DNA of 64,000 nucleotides from an uncultured Methanomassiliicoccales archaeon (GTDB lineage Archaea > Thermoplasmatota > Thermoplasmata > Methanomassiliicoccales > UBA472). Made by a program: the position numbers and the translations under genes. The number at the start of each line of letters is the position of its first letter. The first letter of the stretch is position 1. Where the stretch lies: positions 1,312,001-1,376,000 of the forward strand of contig OY968769.1 of assembly GCA_963695345.1 (NCBI GenBank). Direction: 5' to 3'. Under the pieces are notes generated by a model, which saw nothing but the letters and a program-made list of their open reading frames with translations, did no database searches and was not told the origin of the DNA. Of this stretch, positions 4,472-48,122 are shown one piece after another.

Positions 4472-4655
4472 AGCAATCGCTCGTGCGAGATTAGACTTCT
4501 TGTATAAATATATAAGGGGGTTCCGAAGACCGCAAATAATCCTTTAGAACATCGCAAACAAATATGTTCTCATCTGAGATTACGGAAATGATAGTATATC
4601 GATACATGACAGGTTGATGACCTCTCCAATAATCTCCGTGTCCTTGAGTTGAAGA

Positions 4656-4668
4656 GAAAGATTAAATA
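4656..4668 (+). promoter_or_regulatory. Putative BRE/TATA promoter of tRNA-Lys
   Basis: GAAAG-ATTAAATA about 45 nt upstream of the tRNA 5' end. Confidence 0.55.
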
Positions 4669-4713
4669 ACGGCACCGGATTCTCTCGGCTCTGCACGCCG
4701 GCATACCTACCAA

Positions 4714-4846
4714 GGGCCTGTAGCTCAGCTAGGTAGGACGTTTGGTCACAAGCGTCCCTAGAAAGAGCAGCTGGCTTTTAACCAGCTGGCCAAGGGTTCG
4801 AATCATCCACGGTAACTCCGTGATGTCGAAAATCCCTTCAGGCCCG
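4714..4846 (+). tRNA. tRNA-Lys(UUU) with two non-canonical introns (D-loop about 4735-4763, T-loop about 4803-4832)
   Basis: Acceptor GGGCCTG/CAGGCCC, D stem GCTC/GAGC, anticodon arm GCTGG-CTTTTAA-CCAGC (TTT at 4777-4779), T stem AAGGG/CCCTT. Removing both inserts gives a normal cloverleaf. Confidence 0.92.
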
Positions 4847-4978
4847 CTTGCGTAGGCAAAGAAACGACATGGGAGATCGAAAAGTGAACATCCGTTTCGA
4901 GAGATTCCGATGCATTTTTATAAGGCCGCTACTTAGTATGAAAGAAGGTCCGGGCTTAATTTCGTCGAGGTGATAGCT

Positions 4979-5242
4979 ATGGTCGACACTGTACAGTTTA
5001 ACGTCTTAGAGCACGACCTCGTGCCAGAGCATTATTTGTTATCGGACGAGGATACGAAGAAGGTACTGGCCTCTTTGAGGATCCAGAAAGACCAGTTGCC
5101 AAAGATCCGAAAGGGCGACGCCTGCATCAGGCTTCTGGAGAACATTGAAGGCCCTATCACCGAGGGTAGAGTGGTCAAGATTGTGCGCCGGAGCGCGACC
5201 GCTGAGACCACCGTTGCCTATCGCTTAGTTGTCAGAGGGTGA
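4979..5242 (+). CDS. rpoH: RNA polymerase subunit H (Rpo5)
   Basis: HDLVPEH.LL...QLPKI...[11 protein letters not shown]....YRLV. SD GAGGTGA precedes ATG 4979. Confidence 0.95.
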
Positions 5243-8200
5243 ATTCGTTGCGTGACCTAGTCGAACTCTATTTCAAAGAAAGAAGCATAGTGAATCATCA
5301 CATCTCCAGCTTTGACGACTTCTTGTCGACGTTGGACAATCCGAACAGCAGGATGCAGAAGATCGTCGACAACCTGCGTGTTTCCGCCGAGGACCTGGAC
5401 AGAGGGTTCATAAGGCTCGACCCGGACAAGACCGACGGCCGGATCGTGGAGATCCGCGTCGGTAGGAAGCGGGACGAGAAGACCGGGAACATCGACAACC
5501 AGTCGCGCCCGACCATACATGTCGGATTGCCGGTCGTCCGTGAGGCGAACGGTTACGTCCATGATCTCACCCCCATGGAGGCCAGACTAAGGAACCTGAA
5601 CTATCTGGCCCCCGTTTATCTGGATTTCACCGTCGTCGAGGACGGGATAGAGAAGGAACCGGAAAGGGTCCACATCGGTGACCTGCCGGTCATGGTCAAG
5701 TCGAAGAAATGCACCCTCTACAAGGAGAACATGGAGCAGGAGAGGGAGATCAACGACCATGAGTATAGCCAACGCCTGATGAAGGCCGGCGAGGACCCGA
5801 TGGACCCGGGCGGATACTTCATCATCGGCGGAACGGAGAGGGTATTGATCACCCTCGAGGACCTGGCCCCGAACAGGGTCATGGTCGAGTACAACGAGCG
5901 GTATGGCACCAAGCTCGAGGTCGCCAAGGTGTTCTCGCAGAGGGAAGGCCACCGGGCGCTCACCCTGGTCGAGAAGAAGCGGGACGGCATGCTCATGGTC
6001 ACGGTACCAGCAGCCTCCGGACAGATCCCGCTGGTCGCCCTGATGAAGGCGCTAGGAATGAAGACGGACGAGGAGATATTCGAAGCCGTCGCGTCCATGC
6101 CTGAGATGCATAACATCGTTTACGCTAACATCGAGGAATGCCAGGACAAGAAGCTGTTCCCGCCGAACGGAATTTTCACCCCGGACGACGCGAACCTGTA
6201 CCTGGAACGCAAGTTCGCCACCGGTCAGGCGAAGGAATACCGTCTGAAGAAGGTCGAGTCGATCATCGACCGGTCCCTGCTGCCCCACTTGGGCGATACC
6301 AAGGACGACCGGATGAAGAAGGCCATCTTCCTCGGAAGGATCGCCAGGTCCGTGCTCGAACTCTATCTGGAGAAGCGCGGTGAGGACGACAAGGACCACT
6401 ACGCCAACAAGAGGCTGAAGCTGTCCGGTGACCTCATGGAGGACCTGTTCCGGGTGGCGTTCACCAACCTCATGAAGGACCTGAAGTACCAGCTGGAACG
6501 CTCGTATGCCAGGAAGAAGGACCTGAGGATCGCCAGCGCGATCCGTCCGGACCTGCTGACGCACCGTTTGCTGCACGCTCTGGCCACCGGCAACTGGGTC
6601 GGCGGAAGGGCAGGCGTATCGCAGCTGCTGGACCGCACGTCCAACATGTCCACCGCCTCTCACCTGAGGCGCGTTACCTCTTCGCTTACCCGGTCCCAGC
6701 CTCACTTCGAGGCGCGTGACCTGCACCCGACCCAATGGGGCCGATTGTGCCCCAGCGAGACGCCGGAAGGTCAGAACTGCGGACTGGTGAAGAATGCCGC
6801 GCTGATCATCGATGTCTCGGAAGGCTTCCGCGAGGAGGATGTCGCCTACCTGCTGAAGGACCTCGGGGTCAAGGAGGTCAAGGGGCAGAAGAGCGGCACC
6901 CGCGTCTATGTCAACGGCGATTTGAAAGGTGTCTCGGAGAAGGCCAAAGAGCTCATCGCCGAGATGCGTCACCGCCGGCGCAGCGGTCTGCTCTCCCACG
7001 AGATCAACATCCGCTTCGACCACGAGATGGACGAGGTCATCATCAACTGCGACGAAGGCCGTCTCAGAAGGCCGCTGCTGGTCGTGAACGACGGCAAACT
7101 GGCCCTGACCCGCAAGAACATCGAGGACATCCGCGAGGGCAAGAGCAAGTGGTCCGACCTGATACGCGAGGGCGTTCTGGAATGGATCGATGCCGAGGAA
7201 GAGGAGGACGCCTTCATATGCGTCGACCCCTTCGAGGTACCGGAAAGATGCGACAAGTGCTCCCGTGCCCTGTCCCCCATTGACGTCGACTGGATGAACC
7301 CAGGTACGACCGACAAGCAGGCCAACCTGAAGTGCAAGCACTGCAACCAGATCATATCCGGAAAGCTGCTTATGCAGAAGGACCACACCCACATGGAAGT
7401 GGACCCGATGGTCATTCTCGGTGTCTGCGCCGGCCTGGTCCCGTATCCGGAACACAACTCCTCTCCACGTGTCACCATGGGAGCAGGTATGTCGAAGCAG
7501 TCCCTGGGATTGGCTTCCAGCAACTACCGGAAGAGGCCAGACACCCGCGGGCACGTGATGCACTACCCGCAGAAGCCGATGGTGCAGACCAAGACCATGG
7601 AGTTCGTGGCGTTCAACGAGAGGCCGGCTGGCCAGAACTTTGTCGTCGCGATCCTTTCCTACCACGGCTACAACATGGAAGATGCGCTTATCCTGAACCG
7701 CGCCAGTGTCGAGCGCGGCCTGGGACGTTCCTCGTTCATGAGGACGTACAGGGCGGAAGAGCGCCGCTACCCCGGCGGACAGGAGGACCACTTCGAGATC
7801 CCGCCGCCCGATGTCAGGGGAGCGAGACAGGACCTATCATACAGCAATCTGGGAGAGGACGGGCTGATCAGCCCGGAGACCTCCGTCACCGGCGGCGACG
7901 TGCTGATCGGTAAGACCTCACCGCCGAGGTTCCTGGAAGAGGAGACCGACTTCCTCACGCCCCAGAAGAGGCGCGAGACCTCCATAACCTGCCGTGCGGG
8001 AGAGACTGGATGGGTCGACTCGGTCATGCTGACGGAGTCTGAGAACGGTTCCCGCCTGGTCAAGATCCGCGTCCGTGACGAGAGGATACCGGAACTGGGA
8101 GACAAGTTCGCCTCCAGGCATGGGCAGAAGGGAGTTATCGGACTCATTGCGCCGCCGGAGGACCTGCCGTTCACAACCGACGGCATAATACCGGACCTGG

Positions 8201-8838
8201 TCATCAACCCGCACGCTATCCCGTCCCGTATGACCGTCGCCCACATCCTGGAGATGGTCGGAGGGAAGGTCGGCTCCATGGAGTCGAGGCTCATCGACGG
8301 CACTCCTTTCTCCGGTGAGAGGGAGGACGCTATCCGCGAGTCGCTGGTGCGCAACGGGTTCATGCATTCTGGCAGGGAGGTCATGTATGACGGCCTCACC
8401 GGTCAGATGATCGGTGCGGACATCTTCATCGGGGTCATCTACTACCAGAAACTGCACCACATGGTGTCGGGTAAGATGCACGTCCGGTCAAGGGGACCGG
8501 TCCAGATACTTACCAGGCAACCGACCGAGGGCCGTTCCAGGCAAGGTGGTCTGAGGTTCGGTGAGATGGAAAGGGACTGTCTCATCGGCCACGGAGCCGC
8601 GATGGTCATCAAGGACCGTCTGCTGGACGAGTCCGACGGAACGTTCCAATACGTCTGCGGGAACGGTAACTGCGGCCACATGGCCATGCTCGACCGGCGC
8701 GGCTCGCTGCGGTGCCCGGTGTGCGGAAACAACACCAACGTGCACTTGGTCCAGACCTCATACGCGTTCAAGTTGCTCCTGGATGAGCTGCTGTCGCTTG
8801 GGGTCGCTATGCGTCTTCAACTGGAGGACTTGCGATGA
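5239..8838 (+). CDS. rpoB: RNA polymerase subunit B (Rpo2), unsplit; real start possibly TTG 5248
   Basis: [36 protein letters not shown] and other conserved Rpo2 blocks over 1199 aa. Confidence 0.98.
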
Positions 8839-11612
8839 TGCGAGGGGTATCAAAGAGGATAGGTTCGATCAAGTTCAGCTGCCTCTCTCCTGATGAGATC
8901 AGGAAGATGTCGGCCACAAAGATCATCACCGCCGATACGTACGATGACGACGGGTTCCCGATCGACATGGGTCTGATGGACCCGCACTTGGGCGTCATCG
9001 AACCCGGTCTCCGGTGCAAGACCTGCGGCCACAAGGTCGACGAATGTCCCGGTCACTTCGGCAATATCGATCTGGCCATGCCGGTGGTGCACGTCGGTTT
9101 CATGAAGGAGATCAAGAAACTGCTGCAGTCCACCTGCCGTTCCTGCGGCCGCCTGCTGCTCACCGAGGAGCAGGCCAAGGAGTACCGTGAGACCATGGAG
9201 CAGGTCGAGGAGCTGGGAGGCGACTCGATGGATGTCCGCCTGGTTTCGAAGGACACGGCTAAGGATGCCGCTTCCAGACAGGTCTGCCCGCACTGCGCCG
9301 CAGAGCAGCTGAAGATCACCCTGGACAAGCCGACCACCTTCCGCGAGGACGGCCACAAGCTGACCCCGAAGGAGGTCCGGGAGCGTCTGGAAAGGATCCC
9401 GGACGCCGACCTGGTCCCGCTGGGCATAGACCCCGCGTCCTGCCGTCCGGAATGGATGGTGCTCACCGCCCTGCCGGTCCCGCCGGTCACGGTCCGTCCG
9501 TCCATCACCTTGGAGTCCGGAGACCGGTCCGAGGATGACCTGACGCACAAACTGGTCGATGTCCTGAGGATCAACCAGCGTCTGCGTGAGAACCGTGACG
9601 CCGGCGCGCCCCAGCTGATAGTCGAGGACCTGTGGGAGCTGCTGCAGTACCACATCACCACCTATTTTGACAACCAGACGTCCGGTATCCCGCCCGCAAG
9701 GCACCGGTCCGGCCGTCCGCTGAAGACCCTGGTCCAGAGGCTGAAAGGCAAGGAAGGAAGGTTCCGTTCCAACCTGTCAGGTAAGCGTGTCAACTTCTCC
9801 GCCCGTACCGTCATCTCGCCAGACCCGGCGTTGTCGATCAACGAGGTCGGAGTGCCAACGGAGGCGGCCAGAGAGCTGACGCTGCCGGTCCACGCGACCG
9901 CTGCCAACCTCCAGGTGTTGAAGGACATGGTCAAGCGCGGACCGACGCCCCATTCCGACCACTACCTGCCCGGTGTCAACTACGTCATCCGGCCGGATGG
10001 CAGAAGGATAAGGGTCACCGACAAGAACGCGGAGACGGTGTCAGAGACGGTCGAGATCAACTTCGTCATCGAGAGGCATCTGATGGACGGCGATATCGTG
10101 CTCTTCAACCGGCAACCATCGCTGCACAGGATGTCCATGATGGCGCACACCGTCCGGGTCATGCCGGGCAAGACCTTCAGGCTGAACCTGTGCGTCTGCC
10201 CTCCCTACAACGCTGATTTCGATGGTGACGAGATGAACATGCACGTGCTGCAGTCCGAGGAGGCTCGGGCCGAGGCGACGATCCTGATGAAGGTGCAGGA
10301 GCACATCCTGTCGCCCAGGTTCGGCGGGCCGGTCATCGGCGCCATCCACGACCACATCACCGGGACCTACATGCTCACCCACAATAACCCGGTGTTCAAC
10401 AAGAGCCAGACACTGATCATCACCTCCAGGCTGAAGGGGAACGACCTTCCCCCGCCGCTGATCAAGGACGGAAAGGAGTTCTGGACCGGGAAGATGATCT
10501 TCTCCTCCATCCTGCCCAAGGACATGCGCGTGGTGTTCAAGTCCTCCATCTGCGAGAAGTGCACGCAGTGCAAGAAGGACAAGTGCGAGAACGACGCCTA
10601 CGTGAGGATCAAGGACGGAAAGCTTCTGACCGGCACGATCGATGAGAAGGCCATCGGATCGATGAAGGGAAAGATCCTGGACAAGATCGCGCGTGACTAC
10701 GGATCGAACTACTCGCGGGAGTTCCTGGACAGCGTTACCAAGATCGCCATCGGCGCCATCATGGTCAAGGGGTTCTCCACCGGCATCGACGACGAGGACA
10801 TCCCGAAGGAATCCCAACTCCAGATCCAGGACATGCTCCAGAACGCATCGGATAAGGTCGACCAGCTGGTCACCGCCTACCGCAAGGGCGAGCTGGAACA
10901 GATGCCCGGACGATCCATGGAGGAGACCCTGGAGGTCGAGGCCATGAAGGAGCTGGGACGAGCGAGAGATGAAGCCGGTCGGATCGCAGGAGACCAGCTA
11001 GGTCTGGAGAACGCCGCGGTTCAGATGGCCAAGTCCGGAGCCAGGGGTTCCATGCTTAACCTTTCCCAGATGGCCGGGTGCATCGGGCAGCAGGCAGTCA
11101 GAGGAGAGAGGCTGTCCAGAGGATACTGGAACAGGACCTTGCCTCACTTCCGCCAGGGTGACCTGGGTGCGAAGGCCAAGGGATTCGTGACCAACTCCTA
11201 CAAGTCCGGGCTGACCCCGACCGAGTTCTTCTTCCACTCCATGGGAGGTCGGGAAGGACTGGTCGATACCGCCGTCCGTACCAGCCGATCTGGTTACATG
11301 CAGAGGCGGCTTATCAACGCCCTGGAGGACCTGAAGCTCAAGCAGGACCACACCGTCCGGAACACGGCCGACAGCATCATCCAGTTCGAGTATGGGGAGG
11401 ACGGGATCGACCCGTGCCGCGGCGTCGGCGGGGAAGCGATCGACATCGACGACGTACTCCTGGAAGTGCTCGGTGACGAAGCTGAACTATTGCAGCGCAT
11501 CGAGGACAAGAAGGTCGGCACCTACGGTACCGTCGAGAAGGACCTGATGGAGCTCTCCGAAGAGGAAGAGGAATCAGAGGAAGTCGAGTTCGAGGGCGGA
11601 GGTGAAGAGTAA
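8835..11612 (+). CDS. rpoA1: RNA polymerase subunit A' (Rpo1N)
   Basis: Catalytic [10 protein letters not shown], plus [17 protein letters not shown] and [11 protein letters not shown]. Confidence 0.98.
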
Positions 11613-45457: not shown

Positions 45458-45531
45458 GCCCGAGTGGGGTAGCTTGGATATCCTAGGAGGCTGCGAACCT
45501 CCAGACCCGGATTCAAATTCCGGCTCGGGCG
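45458..45531 (+). tRNA. tRNA-Arg(GCG)
   Basis: GCCCGAG/CTCGGGC acceptor, GGAGG-CTGCGAA-CCTCC anticodon arm (GCG at 45493-45495), CCGGA-TTCAAAT-TCCGG T arm. Confidence 0.93.
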
Positions 45532-45922
45532 CTACACATCCCATTTCTGTGCAATATCATTTATTTCTGGAGGAAGCTCTTTTCCATTCATGACCTGGTC
45601 CAGCTGAGGTTCTGATCTCTGACCGGCCGCTGCTCAGGTCAGCCTGATCTCGGTCATAAGGCTGAGGGTGGAGCACGAACTGAACGGCAGGTCGATCGAC
45701 ACATCGATTTATGTGTCTCCCTGGATCCACCGGTCAGGAAGACGATCGCCGAAGCAAGGACCGGACGGTTCATGGCGTTATCCTGGCAGGCGGGCGGGGC
45801 CGGACACCGACTATGTGTATCTGGAAACGTTCCGGAAGCTCGGGGAGCTGGTGGAGCATATTCGCCCTGGACAAAGGTACTCATGCGGGGCACTGGGCAG
45901 GTACAGGCTCTGAGAGGCTGAA

Positions 45923-47958: not shown

Positions 47959-48030
47959 GCCACTGTGGCTTAGAGGTATAGCGATGCCTTGGTAAGGCAT
48001 AGGTCGAGGGTTCAATTCCCTCCAGTGGCT
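47959..48030 (+). tRNA. tRNA-Thr(GGT)
   Basis: GCCACTG/CAGTGGC acceptor, ATGCC-TTGGTAA-GGCAT anticodon arm, GAGGG-TTCAATT-CCCTC T arm, followed by a T-tract. Confidence 0.95.
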
Positions 48031-48122
48031 CTTTTTCTATTATTCGGTTTCACGGACCGTTCTTCCAGCATAGAAATATAGTTGACAACCTCTATTTCAG
48101 TAGGCTCTTGGGTGAATTAAGG

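What the first reader, a model, noticed from the sequence alone, without database searches (positions are those of the whole stretch)
4714..4846. tRNA-Lys(UUU) carrying two non-canonical introns and none in the anticodon loop
Seen: intron 1 (about 4735-4763, 29 nt, D-loop) has a CTAG/CTAG 4-bp helix, GTA and AAA bulges and a GGACG/CGTCC inner stem. Intron 2 (about 4803-4832, 30 nt, T-loop near position 59/60) has a TTCG/CGAA helix, two AAT bulges and a CACGG/CCGTG stem. Each junction is a relaxed bulge-helix-bulge with one imperfect flank. Knowledge: multi-intron tRNAs at non-canonical sites are characteristic of Thermoproteales and other lineages with broad-specificity (alpha-beta)2 or epsilon2 EndA, while alpha2/alpha4 enzymes are regarded as stricter. 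Inference: this lineage has a broadened splicing endonuclease, and standard scans may miss this tRNA. The introns could also shield the tRNA from integrating elements.
Basis: partly seen in the sequence, partly recalled or inferred. Interest (0 to 1): 0.72.

Follow-up and report, generated by a model that had tools for sequence, protein, structure and literature searches.

The report
Lysine tRNA gene with two introns
This is a real lysine tRNA gene split by two short introns in its D-loop and T-loop; most relatives of this methane-making archaeon share the arrangement, and it is a known kind of gene whose main interest is that the host's splicing enzyme is of a type thought to be strict.

Summary
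Window 4714-4846 (+) encodes tRNA-Lys(UUU) in three exons (21, 39 and 14 nt). A 29-nt intron lies at position 20/21 (4735-4763) and a 30-nt intron at 59/60 (4803-4832). Each sits in a bulge-helix-bulge motif with one imperfect flank. It is the only Lys(UUU) gene found in the 2.56-Mb genome, an uncultured Methanomassiliicoccales archaeon.

All 36 genes parsed from six families of the order carry both introns at the same sites, with compensatory changes in the intron helices. One family instead has an intronless 74-nt gene that corresponds exon for exon to the window gene (same exon lengths, D-loop and T-loop). In a class-wide sample, 50 of the 94 genomes matched by both patterns carry both introns.

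The claim of a broadened endonuclease is not supported by known determinants. EndA is a single 383-aa two-unit (alpha'2-like) protein. Its catalytic unit is collinear with the narrow M. jannaschii enzyme and lacks the Crenarchaea-specific loop. Within the class, families with a reduced, Thermoplasma-like EndA lack these introns, which is a lead and not proof.

The arrangement is not new. The tRNAscan-SE 2.0 supplement already lists a 139-nt Lys-TTT gene in Ca. Methanomassiliicoccus intestinalis. No spliced RNA could be shown here.

The parts
4714..4846 (+). tRNA-Lys(UUU) gene, 133 nt, no encoded CCA
   Evidence: Read. ARAGORN calls Lys(ttt) after script removal of both introns. The exons correspond one for one to the 74-nt intronless orthologues.
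4714..4734 (+). Exon 1 (21 nt): acceptor 5' strand, D stem 5' strand, D loop up to U20
4735..4763 (+). Intron 1, 29 nt, between positions 20 and 21 (D loop)
   Evidence: Absent from the family f7 orthologues.
4729..4732 (+). Central 4-bp helix of BHB 1, 5' strand (CTAG, D-loop bases); pairs with 4758-4761
   Evidence: Invariant CTAG/CTAG in 36 of 36 intron-bearing genes. It covaries with the D loop in other families of the class (CCAG/CTGG, GTAG/CTAC).
4758..4761 (+). Central 4-bp helix of BHB 1, 3' strand (CTAG, intron bases)
4733..4735 (+). 5' bulge of BHB 1 (GTA); inferred cut 4734|4735
   Evidence: GTA in 34 and GTT in 2 of 36 genes. The cut rule is recalled.
4762..4764 (+). 3' bulge of BHB 1 (AAA), opposite unpaired A4727 and G4728; inferred cut 4763|4764
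   Evidence: AAA in 33 and AGA in 3 of 36 genes. The centroid fold shows it.
4736..4757 (+). Inner hairpin of intron 1: 4736-4744 pairs with 4749-4757
   Evidence: 9 pairs. Pairs 3-5 carry compensatory changes (helix 5). Strain variants cluster in its distal (loop-side) part, 4742-4752.
4764..4802 (+). Exon 2 (39 nt): A21, D stem 3' strand, anticodon arm (anticodon TTT 4777-4779), variable loop, T stem 5' strand, T loop to A59
4803..4832 (+). Intron 2, 30 nt, between positions 59 and 60 (T loop)
   Evidence: Absent from the family f7 orthologues.
4797..4800 (+). Central 4-bp helix of BHB 2, 5' strand (TTCG, T-loop bases 54-57); pairs with 4827-4830
   Evidence: Partner is CGAA in 28 and CGGA in 8 of 36 genes.
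4827..4830 (+). Central 4-bp helix of BHB 2, 3' strand (CGAA, intron bases)
4801..4803 (+). 5' bulge of BHB 2 (AAT), opposite unpaired T4826; inferred cut 4802|4803
   Evidence: The MFE fold pairs A4801 with T4826 instead, giving a 5-bp helix with a 2-nt bulge.
4831..4833 (+). 3' bulge of BHB 2 (AAT), directly abutting the T stem; inferred cut 4832|4833
4804..4825 (+). Inner hairpin of intron 2: 4804-4806/4823-4825 and 4808-4812/4818-4822, with C4807 bulged
   Evidence: 4 of 5 distal pairs carry compensatory changes (helix 9).
4833..4846 (+). Exon 3 (14 nt): U60, T stem 3' strand, acceptor 3' strand, discriminator G
4657..4669 (+). A/T-rich box upstream of the gene, a possible archaeal TATA element (inferred only)
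   Evidence: Sequence seen. Relatives show similar A/T boxes upstream. Not tested.
4970..5242 (+). Context: rpoH, first gene of rpoH-rpoB-rpoA' directly downstream
   Evidence: Pfam RNA_pol_Rpb5_C, E = 1.1e-24. rpoB is 5239-8838 and rpoA' is 8835-11612.

Best explanation
Window 4714-4846 is the functional, and apparently only, tRNA-Lys(UUU) gene of an uncultured Methanomassiliicoccales archaeon.

Proposed mechanism:
1. The gene is transcribed as a precursor carrying two introns.
2. Each exon-intron boundary folds into a bulge-helix-bulge: a 4-bp helix built from mature loop bases (D-loop CTAG, T-loop TTCG) and their intron complements, with a 3-nt bulge on each strand.
3. The cell's single EndA cuts in all four bulges (inferred at 4734|4735, 4763|4764, 4802|4803 and 4832|4833). 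EndA is a two-unit chain that presumably acts as a homodimer.
4. RtcB joins the three exons into a 74-nt tRNA, and CCA is added afterwards.

The two motifs keep the 3-4-3 core and one perfect flank each, so an ordinary alpha'2-type enzyme probably suffices.

Shown here: the gene anatomy, its conservation and covariation, the correspondence of its exons to intronless orthologues, and the presence of EndA and RtcB. Inferred: transcription, the exact cuts, the enzyme's competence, and dimerisation.

The arrangement is ancient and widespread in the class. It is not a peculiarity of this genome.
For: Anatomy: all cloverleaf and BHB parts are present. The fold is -63.5 kcal/mol, z = -6.5, 0 of 200 shuffles as good. 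ARAGORN calls Lys(ttt) once both stretches are removed.

Need for the gene:
- No other Lys(UUU) gene was found by ARAGORN, by Rfam's tRNA model over the genome, or by an anticodon-arm scan in which only this locus has tRNA context. The genome does hold Lys(CUU) at 1000810-1000887.
- AAA makes up 10 of 130 Lys codons in rpoH, rpoB and rpoA'.

Conservation:
- 39 of 41 related genomes match.
- 36 of 36 parsed genes from families f1-f6 have both introns at the same sites. 3 of 3 from family f7 are intronless 74-nt genes with the same exon lengths, the same D loop (AGCTAGGTA) and the same T loop (TTCGAAT). These score 73.4 bits as tRNA.
- Order-wide, 222 of 261 genomes match the pattern. All 40 matched genomes of f2-f6 show the intron, and all 33 f7 genomes whose matches were printed are intronless.
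- In the class sample, of the 94 genomes matched by both patterns, 50 have both introns, 11 only the T-loop intron, 3 only the D-loop intron, and 30 neither. Without the unpublished genome G348 the first figure is 49 of 93.

Selection on structure: 97.1% of cells pair against 32-50% when slid, 15 pairs carry double changes against 1-4, and 0 of 500 shuffles reach the observed score. The intron loops vary freely.

Machinery:
- One EndA ORF of 383 aa with two N-terminal and two catalytic Pfam domains.
- Tyr, His and Lys of the catalytic triad are present in the C-terminal unit, read from the alignment to A. fulgidus EndA.
- One RtcB gene.
Against: - No spliced RNA was seen. The four runs laid are contigs; they cover the unspliced gene and show no joint across either intron. 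That neither supports nor refutes splicing.
- Neither BHB is strictly hBHBh'. The 3' bulge of intron 1 lies in a 3x2 internal loop. The 5' bulge of intron 2 lies in a 3x1 loop, or in a 2-5-3 arrangement in the MFE fold.
- Reviews state that alpha4 and alpha'2 enzymes need the strict 3-4-3 motif (PMC3239211, passages; PMC4033280, passages).
- The genome's tRNA set could not be completed. Ile(GAT) and Ser(UGA) were not found, so my scans do miss genes, and a second Lys(UUU) gene cannot be fully excluded.
Confidence: 0.85

Rival explanations
1. The gene is functional, but only because this lineage's EndA has acquired broadened specificity by a route other than the known loops. The full-size, non-catalytic N-terminal unit, or lysines in the short loop GKKIGK of the catalytic unit, would let it accept bulges that face unpaired bases.
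For: - Both BHBs depart from the strict motif in nearly all lineages.
- Within the class, the EndA form tracks the introns. All 12 f24 and 2 f25 genomes, and 2 of 3 f19 genomes, give only one PF01974 hit, in open frames of 298-311 aa where printed for f19 and f24. None of these families carries either intron in Lys(UUU). Arg(UCU) is intronless in 3 of 3 such genomes where it was identified.
- 58 of 64 intron-bearing genomes give two hits.
- Family f7 lacks the Lys introns but keeps the two-unit EndA, and 4 of 5 f7 genomes checked have a 59/60 intron in Arg(UCU).
- Kaneta et al. 2018 note a deletion in the structural unit of Thermoplasmatales EndA (PMC5829648, passage).
Against: - The catalytic unit is collinear with the narrow M. 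jannaschii enzyme and lacks the CSL-type insertion. The loop has the same length in f6 and f7 orthologues.
- M. kandleri EndA also has full-size units and no loop, and it has constrained specificity (PMC6379350, passages).
- The EndA-intron association may rest on one or two evolutionary events, because the families concerned may be a single clade. Kin are not independent.
- Two-unit alpha'2 enzymes of similar length exist in lineages said to have only canonical introns (recalled, not tested here).
Confidence: 0.3
2. The introns persist because they protect the gene from integrases that use tRNA genes as attachment sites (the Randau and Soll idea, mentioned by the first reader). This is a reason for retention, not an alternative to splicing.
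For: - The idea is in print (PMC4090602, passages).
- This genome has att-like duplicated 3' parts of two tRNA-Leu genes, at 99098-99132 and 1490923-1490960. Elements therefore do appear to target its tRNA genes, and the T-loop intron interrupts the region such elements usually copy.
Against: - Nothing here tests the idea.
- Family f7 and the Thermoplasma-like families carry intronless genes.
- The review itself notes that other tRNA genes remain available as targets.
Confidence: 0.15
3. The gene is a disrupted pseudogene, or the two insertions are not removed and remain in the RNA.
For: No spliced RNA was observed. Standard tools do not call a tRNA here.
Against: - The insertions sit at identical sites across six families of the order and more families of the class, with compensatory changes in every intron helix and invariant exons.
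- It is the only Lys(UUU) gene found, while AAA codons are used in RNA polymerase genes.
- A 30-nt insertion in the T loop and a 29-nt insertion in the D loop would disrupt the D-loop/T-loop contact of a working tRNA (established tRNA knowledge).
Confidence: 0.03

Closest known systems
chr.trna28-LysTTT of Candidatus Methanomassiliicoccus intestinalis Issoire-Mx1, listed in the tRNAscan-SE 2.0 supplement (PMC8450103, file Archaea_20_vs_131_diff.txt)
   Same: Same order, same isoacceptor. It is a 139-nt gene, the same length as the two-intron genes I parsed in family f6. It is marked 'novel', meaning version 1.3 missed it, and scores 83.1 bits in version 2.0.
   Different: It is only a table row. 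I saw no description of its introns, their positions or their distribution. I saw the one row that the term search returned and did not read the rest of the file. The window's gene is 133 nt and comes from another family.
[quoted passage not shown] 2011, PMC3239211, passages)
   Same: The intron lies at 59/60 in the T loop, and the BHB is built from T-loop bases. Pro(GGG) has two introns.
   Different: The ARMAN-2 host has a three-unit epsilon2 EndA with a specific loop and proven broad specificity. Its Cys intron forms a relaxed hBH motif. Here the host has a two-unit enzyme without such a loop, and both bulges are present.
Multi-intron tRNA genes of Thermoproteales (Sugahara et al. 2008, as cited in PMC4033280 and PMC8450103, passages)
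   Same: Two or three BHB introns in one tRNA gene at non-canonical sites, missed by simple scanners.
   Different: [quoted passage not shown] Their introns are many and show transposition between genes. Here few genes are affected, and the two introns are old and fixed at the same sites across a class.
Korarchaeum cryptofilum: alpha2-type EndA together with non-canonical and multiple introns (PMC3239211 and PMC4033280, passages)
   Same: A single-chain two-unit EndA in a host whose tRNA genes carry non-canonical and multiple introns.
   Different: The K. cryptofilum enzyme carries the same specific loop as (alpha-beta)2 enzymes and is thought to be a fusion of that type. The enzyme here lacks the loop. 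In 2014 K. cryptofilum was called the only alpha2 archaeon with non-canonical introns.
Methanopyrus kandleri EndA, PDB 5x89 (fused beta-alpha; Kaneta et al. 2018, PMC5829648)
   Same: It is the best solved-structure match of the window genome's EndA over both units (E = 1.2e-39, query 30-368). It has full-size structural and catalytic units and no specific loop.
   Different: It is two genes in M. kandleri, fused artificially for the crystal. It is reported to have constrained specificity and cuts a relaxed BHB only slightly (PMC6379350, passage).

Membership tests
Archaeal BHB tRNA intron (spliced by EndA and RtcB) | A 4-bp central helix between the two splice sites | tested here: met
   CTAG/CTAG and TTCG/CGAA. 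Both are kept in 36 of 36 genes, with one U-A to U-G change in helix 2. Helix 1 covaries with the D loop in other families.
Archaeal BHB tRNA intron (spliced by EndA and RtcB) | Two 3-nt bulges on opposite strands, one at each end of the central helix | tested here: met
   GTA and AAA; AAT and AAT. One bulge of each motif faces unpaired bases.
Archaeal BHB tRNA intron (spliced by EndA and RtcB) | Removal restores a canonical cloverleaf tRNA | tested here: met
   ARAGORN calls Lys(ttt) after removal. The exons correspond to the intronless 74-nt orthologues, which score 73.4 bits.
Archaeal BHB tRNA intron (spliced by EndA and RtcB) | The host encodes the splicing endonuclease and the ligase | tested here: met
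   EndA at genome 1264438-1265589. RtcB at 2337987-2339294.
Archaeal BHB tRNA intron (spliced by EndA and RtcB) | Spliced product and excised introns exist as RNA | tested here: inconclusive
   Only contigs of RNA libraries could be laid. They cover the unspliced form and show no joint.
Strict hBHBh' motif (stated substrate of alpha4 and alpha'2 enzymes) | Outer and inner helices abut both bulges directly (pure 3-4-3) | tested here: not met
   In intron 1, A4727 and G4728 lie between the D stem and the central helix. In intron 2, T4826 lies between the inner and central helices, or the MFE fold gives 2-5-3.
Host with (alpha-beta)2 EndA | Separate catalytic and structural subunit genes | tested here: not met
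   Both PF01974 matches in the genome lie in one open frame.
Host with (alpha-beta)2 or epsilon2 EndA of broad specificity | A specific loop insertion (CSL or ASL) in the catalytic unit | tested here: not met
   A. pernix alpha shows a roughly 10-residue insertion relative to the query. The query is collinear with M. jannaschii alpha, with gaps of 1-2 residues. The alignment to ARMAN-2 was not printed, so absence of an ASL rests on the collinearity with M. jannaschii.
Host with epsilon2 EndA | Three units in one chain (alphaN-alpha-betaC) | tested here: not met
   Two units only. Pfam finds two N-terminal and two catalytic domains. The N-terminal unit aligns to M. jannaschii alpha 3-166.
alpha'2 (homodimeric two-unit) EndA | One chain holding a non-catalytic unit followed by a catalytic unit | tested here: met
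   The C-terminal unit has Tyr, His and Lys aligned to the A. fulgidus triad. The N-terminal unit lacks the His, by my reading of the sequence against that motif.
alpha'2 (homodimeric two-unit) EndA | Assembles as a homodimer | not tested
   No complex prediction or assay was run.

The most novel reading that the evidence does not exclude
Much of the class Thermoplasmata, Methanomassiliicoccales included, has for a long time kept BHB introns at 20/21 and 59/60 in tRNA-Lys, and at 59/60 in tRNA-Arg(UCU). It has done so under a loop-less, single-chain, two-complete-unit EndA. On this reading the enzyme form is a so far unrecognised route to tolerance of imperfect and non-canonical BHBs. When the structural unit was reduced in the Thermoplasma-like families, those introns were purged. 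That would be an independent case of intron-enzyme co-evolution inside the 'strict' alpha'2 group.
Probability: 0.3. Interest if true: 0.65.

Novelty: new member of a known kind. Interest (0 to 1): 0.45.

Why it matters
The gene matters in three ways.

1. Annotation. The gene is needed to read AAA codons, yet ARAGORN and Rfam miss it. Genome annotations of this order can therefore appear to lack tRNA-Lys(UUU).

2. The rule linking enzyme type to intron type.
- Reviews state that alpha4 and alpha'2 endonucleases serve only strict BHB introns at the canonical site.
- They also state that non-canonical or multiple introns go with enzymes carrying a specific loop.
- Here a loop-less two-unit enzyme coexists with two conserved non-canonical introns whose motifs are slightly relaxed, across many families.
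- Either such motifs fall within the tolerance of 'narrow' enzymes, or this enzyme form is broader than assumed. A simple cleavage assay with cultured relatives' enzymes would decide between the two.

3. Intron history. The mosaic of states across the class (both, one or neither intron) is a clean data set for studying how long tRNA introns last and how they are lost.

Tried and rejected
- **RNA evidence.** The look-up of sequencing runs listed 14 RNA runs holding part of the stretch. The four runs laid are all contigs. They cover the unspliced gene at 95-99% identity and show no joint across either intron. Contigs cannot show a short, modified, spliced tRNA, so this counts neither way.
- **Genome-wide BHB enumeration.** 445,296 candidates were followed by single-splice ARAGORN scans. 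These gave only known tRNAs and artefacts at their ends. My filters require both flanking helices, so relaxed cases are missed.
- **Profile search for tRNA pieces.** An nhmmer profile built from this genome's tRNAs gave partial hits that I inspected.
  - The hits at 1237411-1237453, 1637701-1637753 and 1620449-1620498, and the ARAGORN long-'intron' calls at 904508-904709 and 2300609-2300740, look like coding sequence. I rejected them by eye and did not test them.
  - A region-level two-intron search on five such regions found nothing.
- **Missing tRNAs.** Searches for Ile(GAT) and Ser(UGA) by anticodon-arm scan and by an acceptor/D-arm/T-arm scan that allowed a split T loop failed. The single hit at 2184784-2184904 looks spurious.
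- **Other splice combinations.** ARAGORN also accepted alternative splicings at the Lys locus, read as Ser(act), Met(cat) and Ser(aga). I rejected them because their helices are only 2-3 bp and the intronless orthologues support the Lys reading.
- **A 5-bp central helix for intron 2.** The MFE fold forms TTCGA/TCGAA. I did not adopt it as the conserved form, because in other families the extra base is C or G and cannot pair with A58.
- **EndA alignment.** In one search my script picked the wrong frame or strand for 3 of 6 loci. Only G000, G029 and G098 are usable.
- **Literature.**
  - No paper in the library holds 'Methanomassiliicocc*' together with 'tRNA intron'.
  - One paper holds it together with 'splicing endonuclease'; I saw only its search listing, and the title and abstract start concern ribosome biogenesis evolution.
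  - Borrel et al. 2014 (PMC4153887, passages) give tRNA counts and do not mention tRNA introns.
  - The 2026 Asgard preprint does not mention Thermoplasmata.
Full report
**What is there**

Reading window 4600-4960 gives a complete cloverleaf once two stretches are set aside.
- The cloverleaf parts are the acceptor stem 4714-4720/4839-4845 with discriminator G4846, the D stem 4723-4726/4765-4768, the anticodon arm 4770-4786 with TTT at 4777-4779, and the T stem 4792-4796/4834-4838.
- The first stretch set aside is 4735-4763 (29 nt), between U20 and A21 of the D loop. The second is 4803-4832 (30 nt), between A59 and U60 of the T loop.
- The exons are 21, 39 and 14 nt, 74 nt in all. No CCA is encoded.
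- ARAGORN finds nothing here. Rfam at gathering threshold finds nothing. Rfam's tRNA model gives 18.3 bits for genome 1316719-1316809 against a threshold of 29.

**The two motifs**

Intron 1:
- D-loop bases CTAG (4729-4732) pair with intron bases CTAG (4758-4761).
- The 5' bulge GTA (4733-4735) is clean and is followed by a 9-bp inner hairpin.
- The 3' bulge AAA (4762-4764) is followed by the D stem, but A4727 and G4728 lie unpaired opposite it.

Intron 2:
- T-loop bases TTCG (4797-4800) pair with CGAA (4827-4830).
- The 3' bulge AAT (4831-4833) abuts the T stem directly.
- The 5' bulge AAT (4801-4803) faces one unpaired base, T4826, before the inner hairpin.

The 133-nt RNA folds at -63.5 kcal/mol (z = -6.5; 0 of 200 shuffles as good). 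The centroid reproduces all these helices. The minimum-energy form pairs A4801 with T4826 and so draws intron 2 as 2-5-3.

The exact cut points (after the second base of each bulge) rest on a recalled rule. By sequence alone they can slide by 1 nt in intron 1 and by up to 3 nt in intron 2.

**It is the gene the cell needs**

- The window lies in a one-contig genome of 2.56 Mb, 56% G+C.
- The close relatives of its EndA (91-94% identity) are titled uncultured Methanomassiliicoccales in 4 of 5 records.
- ARAGORN with introns, Rfam's tRNA model and an anticodon-arm scan find no other Lys(UUU) gene. Lys(CUU) is at 1000810-1000887.
- AAA is a minor but used codon: 10 of 130 Lys codons in rpoH, rpoB and rpoA', which start 124 nt downstream of the tRNA.
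- A script that removes candidate BHB introns and passes the result to ARAGORN recovers Lys(ttt) with exactly these two stretches removed.

**Relatives**

*Close relatives.*
- A DNA search of 41 related genomes matched in 39. The two without a match are 93% and 91% complete.
- I parsed 39 genes and aligned them as A1.
- All 36 from families f1-f6 have both introns at the same two sites, with lengths of 29-34 nt each.
- All 3 from family f7 are intronless 74-nt genes. Their exon lengths, D loop and T loop are those of the window's exons, and they score 73.4 bits as tRNA.
- Anchored at the junctions, the central helix of intron 1 is CTAG/CTAG in 36 of 36 genes. Its bulges are GTA (34) or GTT (2), and AAA (33) or AGA (3).
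- The central helix of intron 2 is TTCG with CGAA (28) or CGGA (8).

*Structure counts on A1* (35 distinct rows, 39 pairs).
- 97.1% of cells pair, against 32-50% when partners are slid.
- 15 pairs carry changes on both sides, against 1-4 when slid. 0 of 500 shuffles reach the observed score.
- 3 of 3 pairs of the variable part of the inner helix of intron 1, and 4 of 5 of intron 2, show compensatory changes.
- Variants among strains in public runs fall at 4742-4752, in the distal (loop-side) part of intron 1's hairpin.

*The whole order*.
- A pattern spanning the gene matched 222 of 261 genomes: f1 43/46, f2 1/1, f3 4/4, f4 1/1, f5 10/10, f6 24/24, f7 138/174.
- All 40 matched genomes of f2-f6 show intron 1 in the printed string. 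Their match spans of 97-138 nt, against 57 nt for the intronless form, also imply a T-loop insertion.
- All 33 f7 genomes whose matches were printed are intronless.
- 251 further matches were not printed. The f1 matches were not among the printed rows.

*The wider class* (two pattern searches of the same 151-genome sample; 94 genomes matched by both).
- Both introns: 50 genomes (f1 2, f8 1, f10 15, f16 14, f21 14, f30 2, f33 2).
- T-loop intron only: 11 (f8 2, f15 6, f21 3).
- D-loop intron only: 3 (f16 1, f18 2).
- Neither: 30 (f7 16, f19 3, f24 9, f25 2).
- One f16 genome, G348, is unpublished. Without it the first figure is 49 of 93.
- 52 genomes matched neither pattern and 5 matched only one. 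Their state is unknown.
- Where the D loop differs, the intron strand of the central helix changes with it: CCAG/CTGG in f21, GTAG/CTAC in f16, TTCG/CGGA in G327.
- Lys(CUU) carries a 59/60 intron in four fetched genes of f13 and f14. Those loci were chosen because their BLAST matches stopped at position 60 or 61, so they are not a fair sample.

The two introns are therefore old, separately gained or lost, and maintained by selection on the BHB and not on the intron sequence.

**The enzyme**

*Architecture.*
- The genome gives two matches to the EndA catalytic domain, both in one open frame. The ORF is 383 aa, at genome 1264438-1265589.
- Pfam finds two N-terminal and two catalytic domains.
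- The best solved match is the fused beta-alpha enzyme of M. kandleri (5x89, E = 1.2e-39, both units). Next is A. fulgidus alpha'2 (E = 6e-31). T. acidophilum alpha'2 matches well only in the catalytic domain.
- The N-terminal unit is full size: it aligns to M. jannaschii alpha 3-166 at E = 6.4e-20. By my reading it lacks the catalytic His.
- The C-terminal unit has the Tyr, His and Lys that align with the A. fulgidus triad. The triad numbering is recalled.

*Known specificity determinants.*
- The catalytic unit aligns end to end with M. jannaschii alpha, with gaps of 1-2 residues.
- A. pernix alpha shows a roughly 10-residue insertion at the Crenarchaea-specific loop.
- Orthologues in f6 and f7 have the same length at that loop. 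Only 3 of 6 sequences are usable.
- One RtcB gene is present.
- By the criteria in print, this enzyme would be classed as narrow. Only (alpha-beta)2 and epsilon2 types, with an insert carrying a specific loop, are said to cut non-canonical introns (abstract of PMC5829648 in the listing). The loops are said to confer breadth regardless of type (passages of PMC5829648 and PMC6379350).

**A lead on co-evolution inside the class**

- In the 151-genome sample, 143 have EndA.
- 125 give two catalytic-domain hits. 18 give one: all 12 of f24, both of f25, 2 of 3 of f19, and 2 incomplete f15 genomes. The open frames printed for f19 and f24 are 298-311 aa.
- Families f24, f25 and f19 are exactly those, besides f7, with no intron in Lys(UUU).
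- Arg(UCU) is intronless in the 3 of 5 such genomes where I could identify it.
- Family f7 keeps the two-unit enzyme, and 4 of 5 f7 genomes checked have a 59/60 intron in Arg(UCU).
- Kaneta et al. note a deletion in the structural unit of Thermoplasmatales EndA.

This fits a link between a complete structural unit and tolerance of these introns. The short-enzyme families may be one clade, however, so the pattern may rest on one or two events and proves nothing.

**What is known already**

- Multi-intron tRNA genes with BHB motifs at non-canonical sites are a known kind. Position 59/60 is a known site (ARMAN-2 Cys and Pro).
- The tRNAscan-SE 2.0 supplement lists a 139-nt Lys-TTT gene in Ca. Methanomassiliicoccus intestinalis, scoring 83.1 bits and missed by version 1.3. 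The arrangement is therefore already machine-catalogued in this order.
- I found no text describing it. No paper holds 'Methanomassiliicocc*' with 'tRNA intron'. The 2014 comparative genomics paper of the order gives tRNA counts only (passages).
- Reviews say that Euryarchaeota with alpha4 or alpha2 enzymes have single introns at the canonical site (PMC4090602). They also say K. cryptofilum, whose enzyme has the specific loop, is the only alpha2 archaeon with non-canonical introns (PMC4033280).
- The case here is an exception to those statements. I cannot say whether databases such as GtRNAdb show it more fully.

**Limits**

- No spliced RNA was shown.
- The tRNA set of the genome is incomplete in my hands (Ile-GAT and Ser-UGA missing).
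- Family and genus labels are coded, and kin are not independent.
- The class counts cover only genomes whose genes fit my patterns.

**Verdict**

It is a functional two-intron tRNA-Lys(UUU) gene of a known kind, ancient and widespread in its class. The inference of a broadened endonuclease is not supported by known determinants but remains open, with a testable lead.

Noticed in passing
G000:C1:1705441-1705575 (outside the window; locus L072:21-155): tRNA-Arg(UCU) also has two introns: one at or near the canonical site, and one at 59/60. The 59/60 BHB (TTCG, AAT, a 7-bp inner helix, CGAA, AAT) has both flanks perfect. ARAGORN misses the gene and Rfam gives it 19.6 bits. In family f7, 4 of 5 genomes checked keep only the 59/60 intron and one is intronless.
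   Followed up: partly
G000:C1:99098-99132 and 1490923-1490960 (outside the window): These are near-exact copies of the 3' parts of tRNA-Leu(TAG) (gene at 96567-96653) and tRNA-Leu(CAG) (gene at 1490261-1490347). They lie 2.5 kb and 0.6 kb downstream of their genes and look like attachment-site repeats left by integrated elements.
   Followed up: no
Whole genome G000: No tRNA-Ile(GAT) or tRNA-Ser(UGA) gene was found by ARAGORN, Rfam, an nhmmer profile or my own scans. They may be hidden by several or unusual introns.
   Followed up: partly
G000:C1:1462723-1462820, 1079266-1079366, 1691675-1691785, 2430787-2430884, 1718806-1718906: ARAGORN mislabels several intron-bearing tRNAs. By eye they are Val(GAC), two CAT tRNAs, Arg(CCG) and Ser(GGA), each with an intron at or next to 37/38. 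At least 14 tRNA genes of this genome carry introns, which is many for a euryarchaeon.
   Followed up: partly
Class-wide sample: EndA comes in two forms within the class. One is a two-unit form with two catalytic-domain hits (125 genomes). The other is a shorter form with one hit (18 genomes; all of f24 and f25, and 2 of 3 of f19). The short form goes with absence of the D-loop and T-loop introns in Lys(UUU).
   Followed up: partly
Loci L053-L055 and L066 (families f13 and f14): In other families of the class, tRNA-Lys(CUU), and not Lys(UUU), carries a 59/60 intron with the same TTCG/CGAA-type helix.
   Followed up: no
window 4710: One RNA-library contig (run X1) begins at 4710, directly behind Illumina adapter letters and 4 nt upstream of the mature 5' end. 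It runs on into rpoH. This may mark a fragment or transcript end. It is a single contig and so very weak evidence.
   Followed up: no
window 4970-11612: The tRNA gene sits directly upstream of rpoH, an unsplit rpoB (1199 aa) and rpoA'. Relatives also show a ribosome-binding-site-like GGTGAGG and an ATG shortly after the tRNA, so the neighbourhood may be conserved.
   Followed up: no
window 45458-45532 and 47959-48031: The two other tRNA genes of the window, Arg(GCG) and Thr(GGT), are intronless.
   Followed up: no
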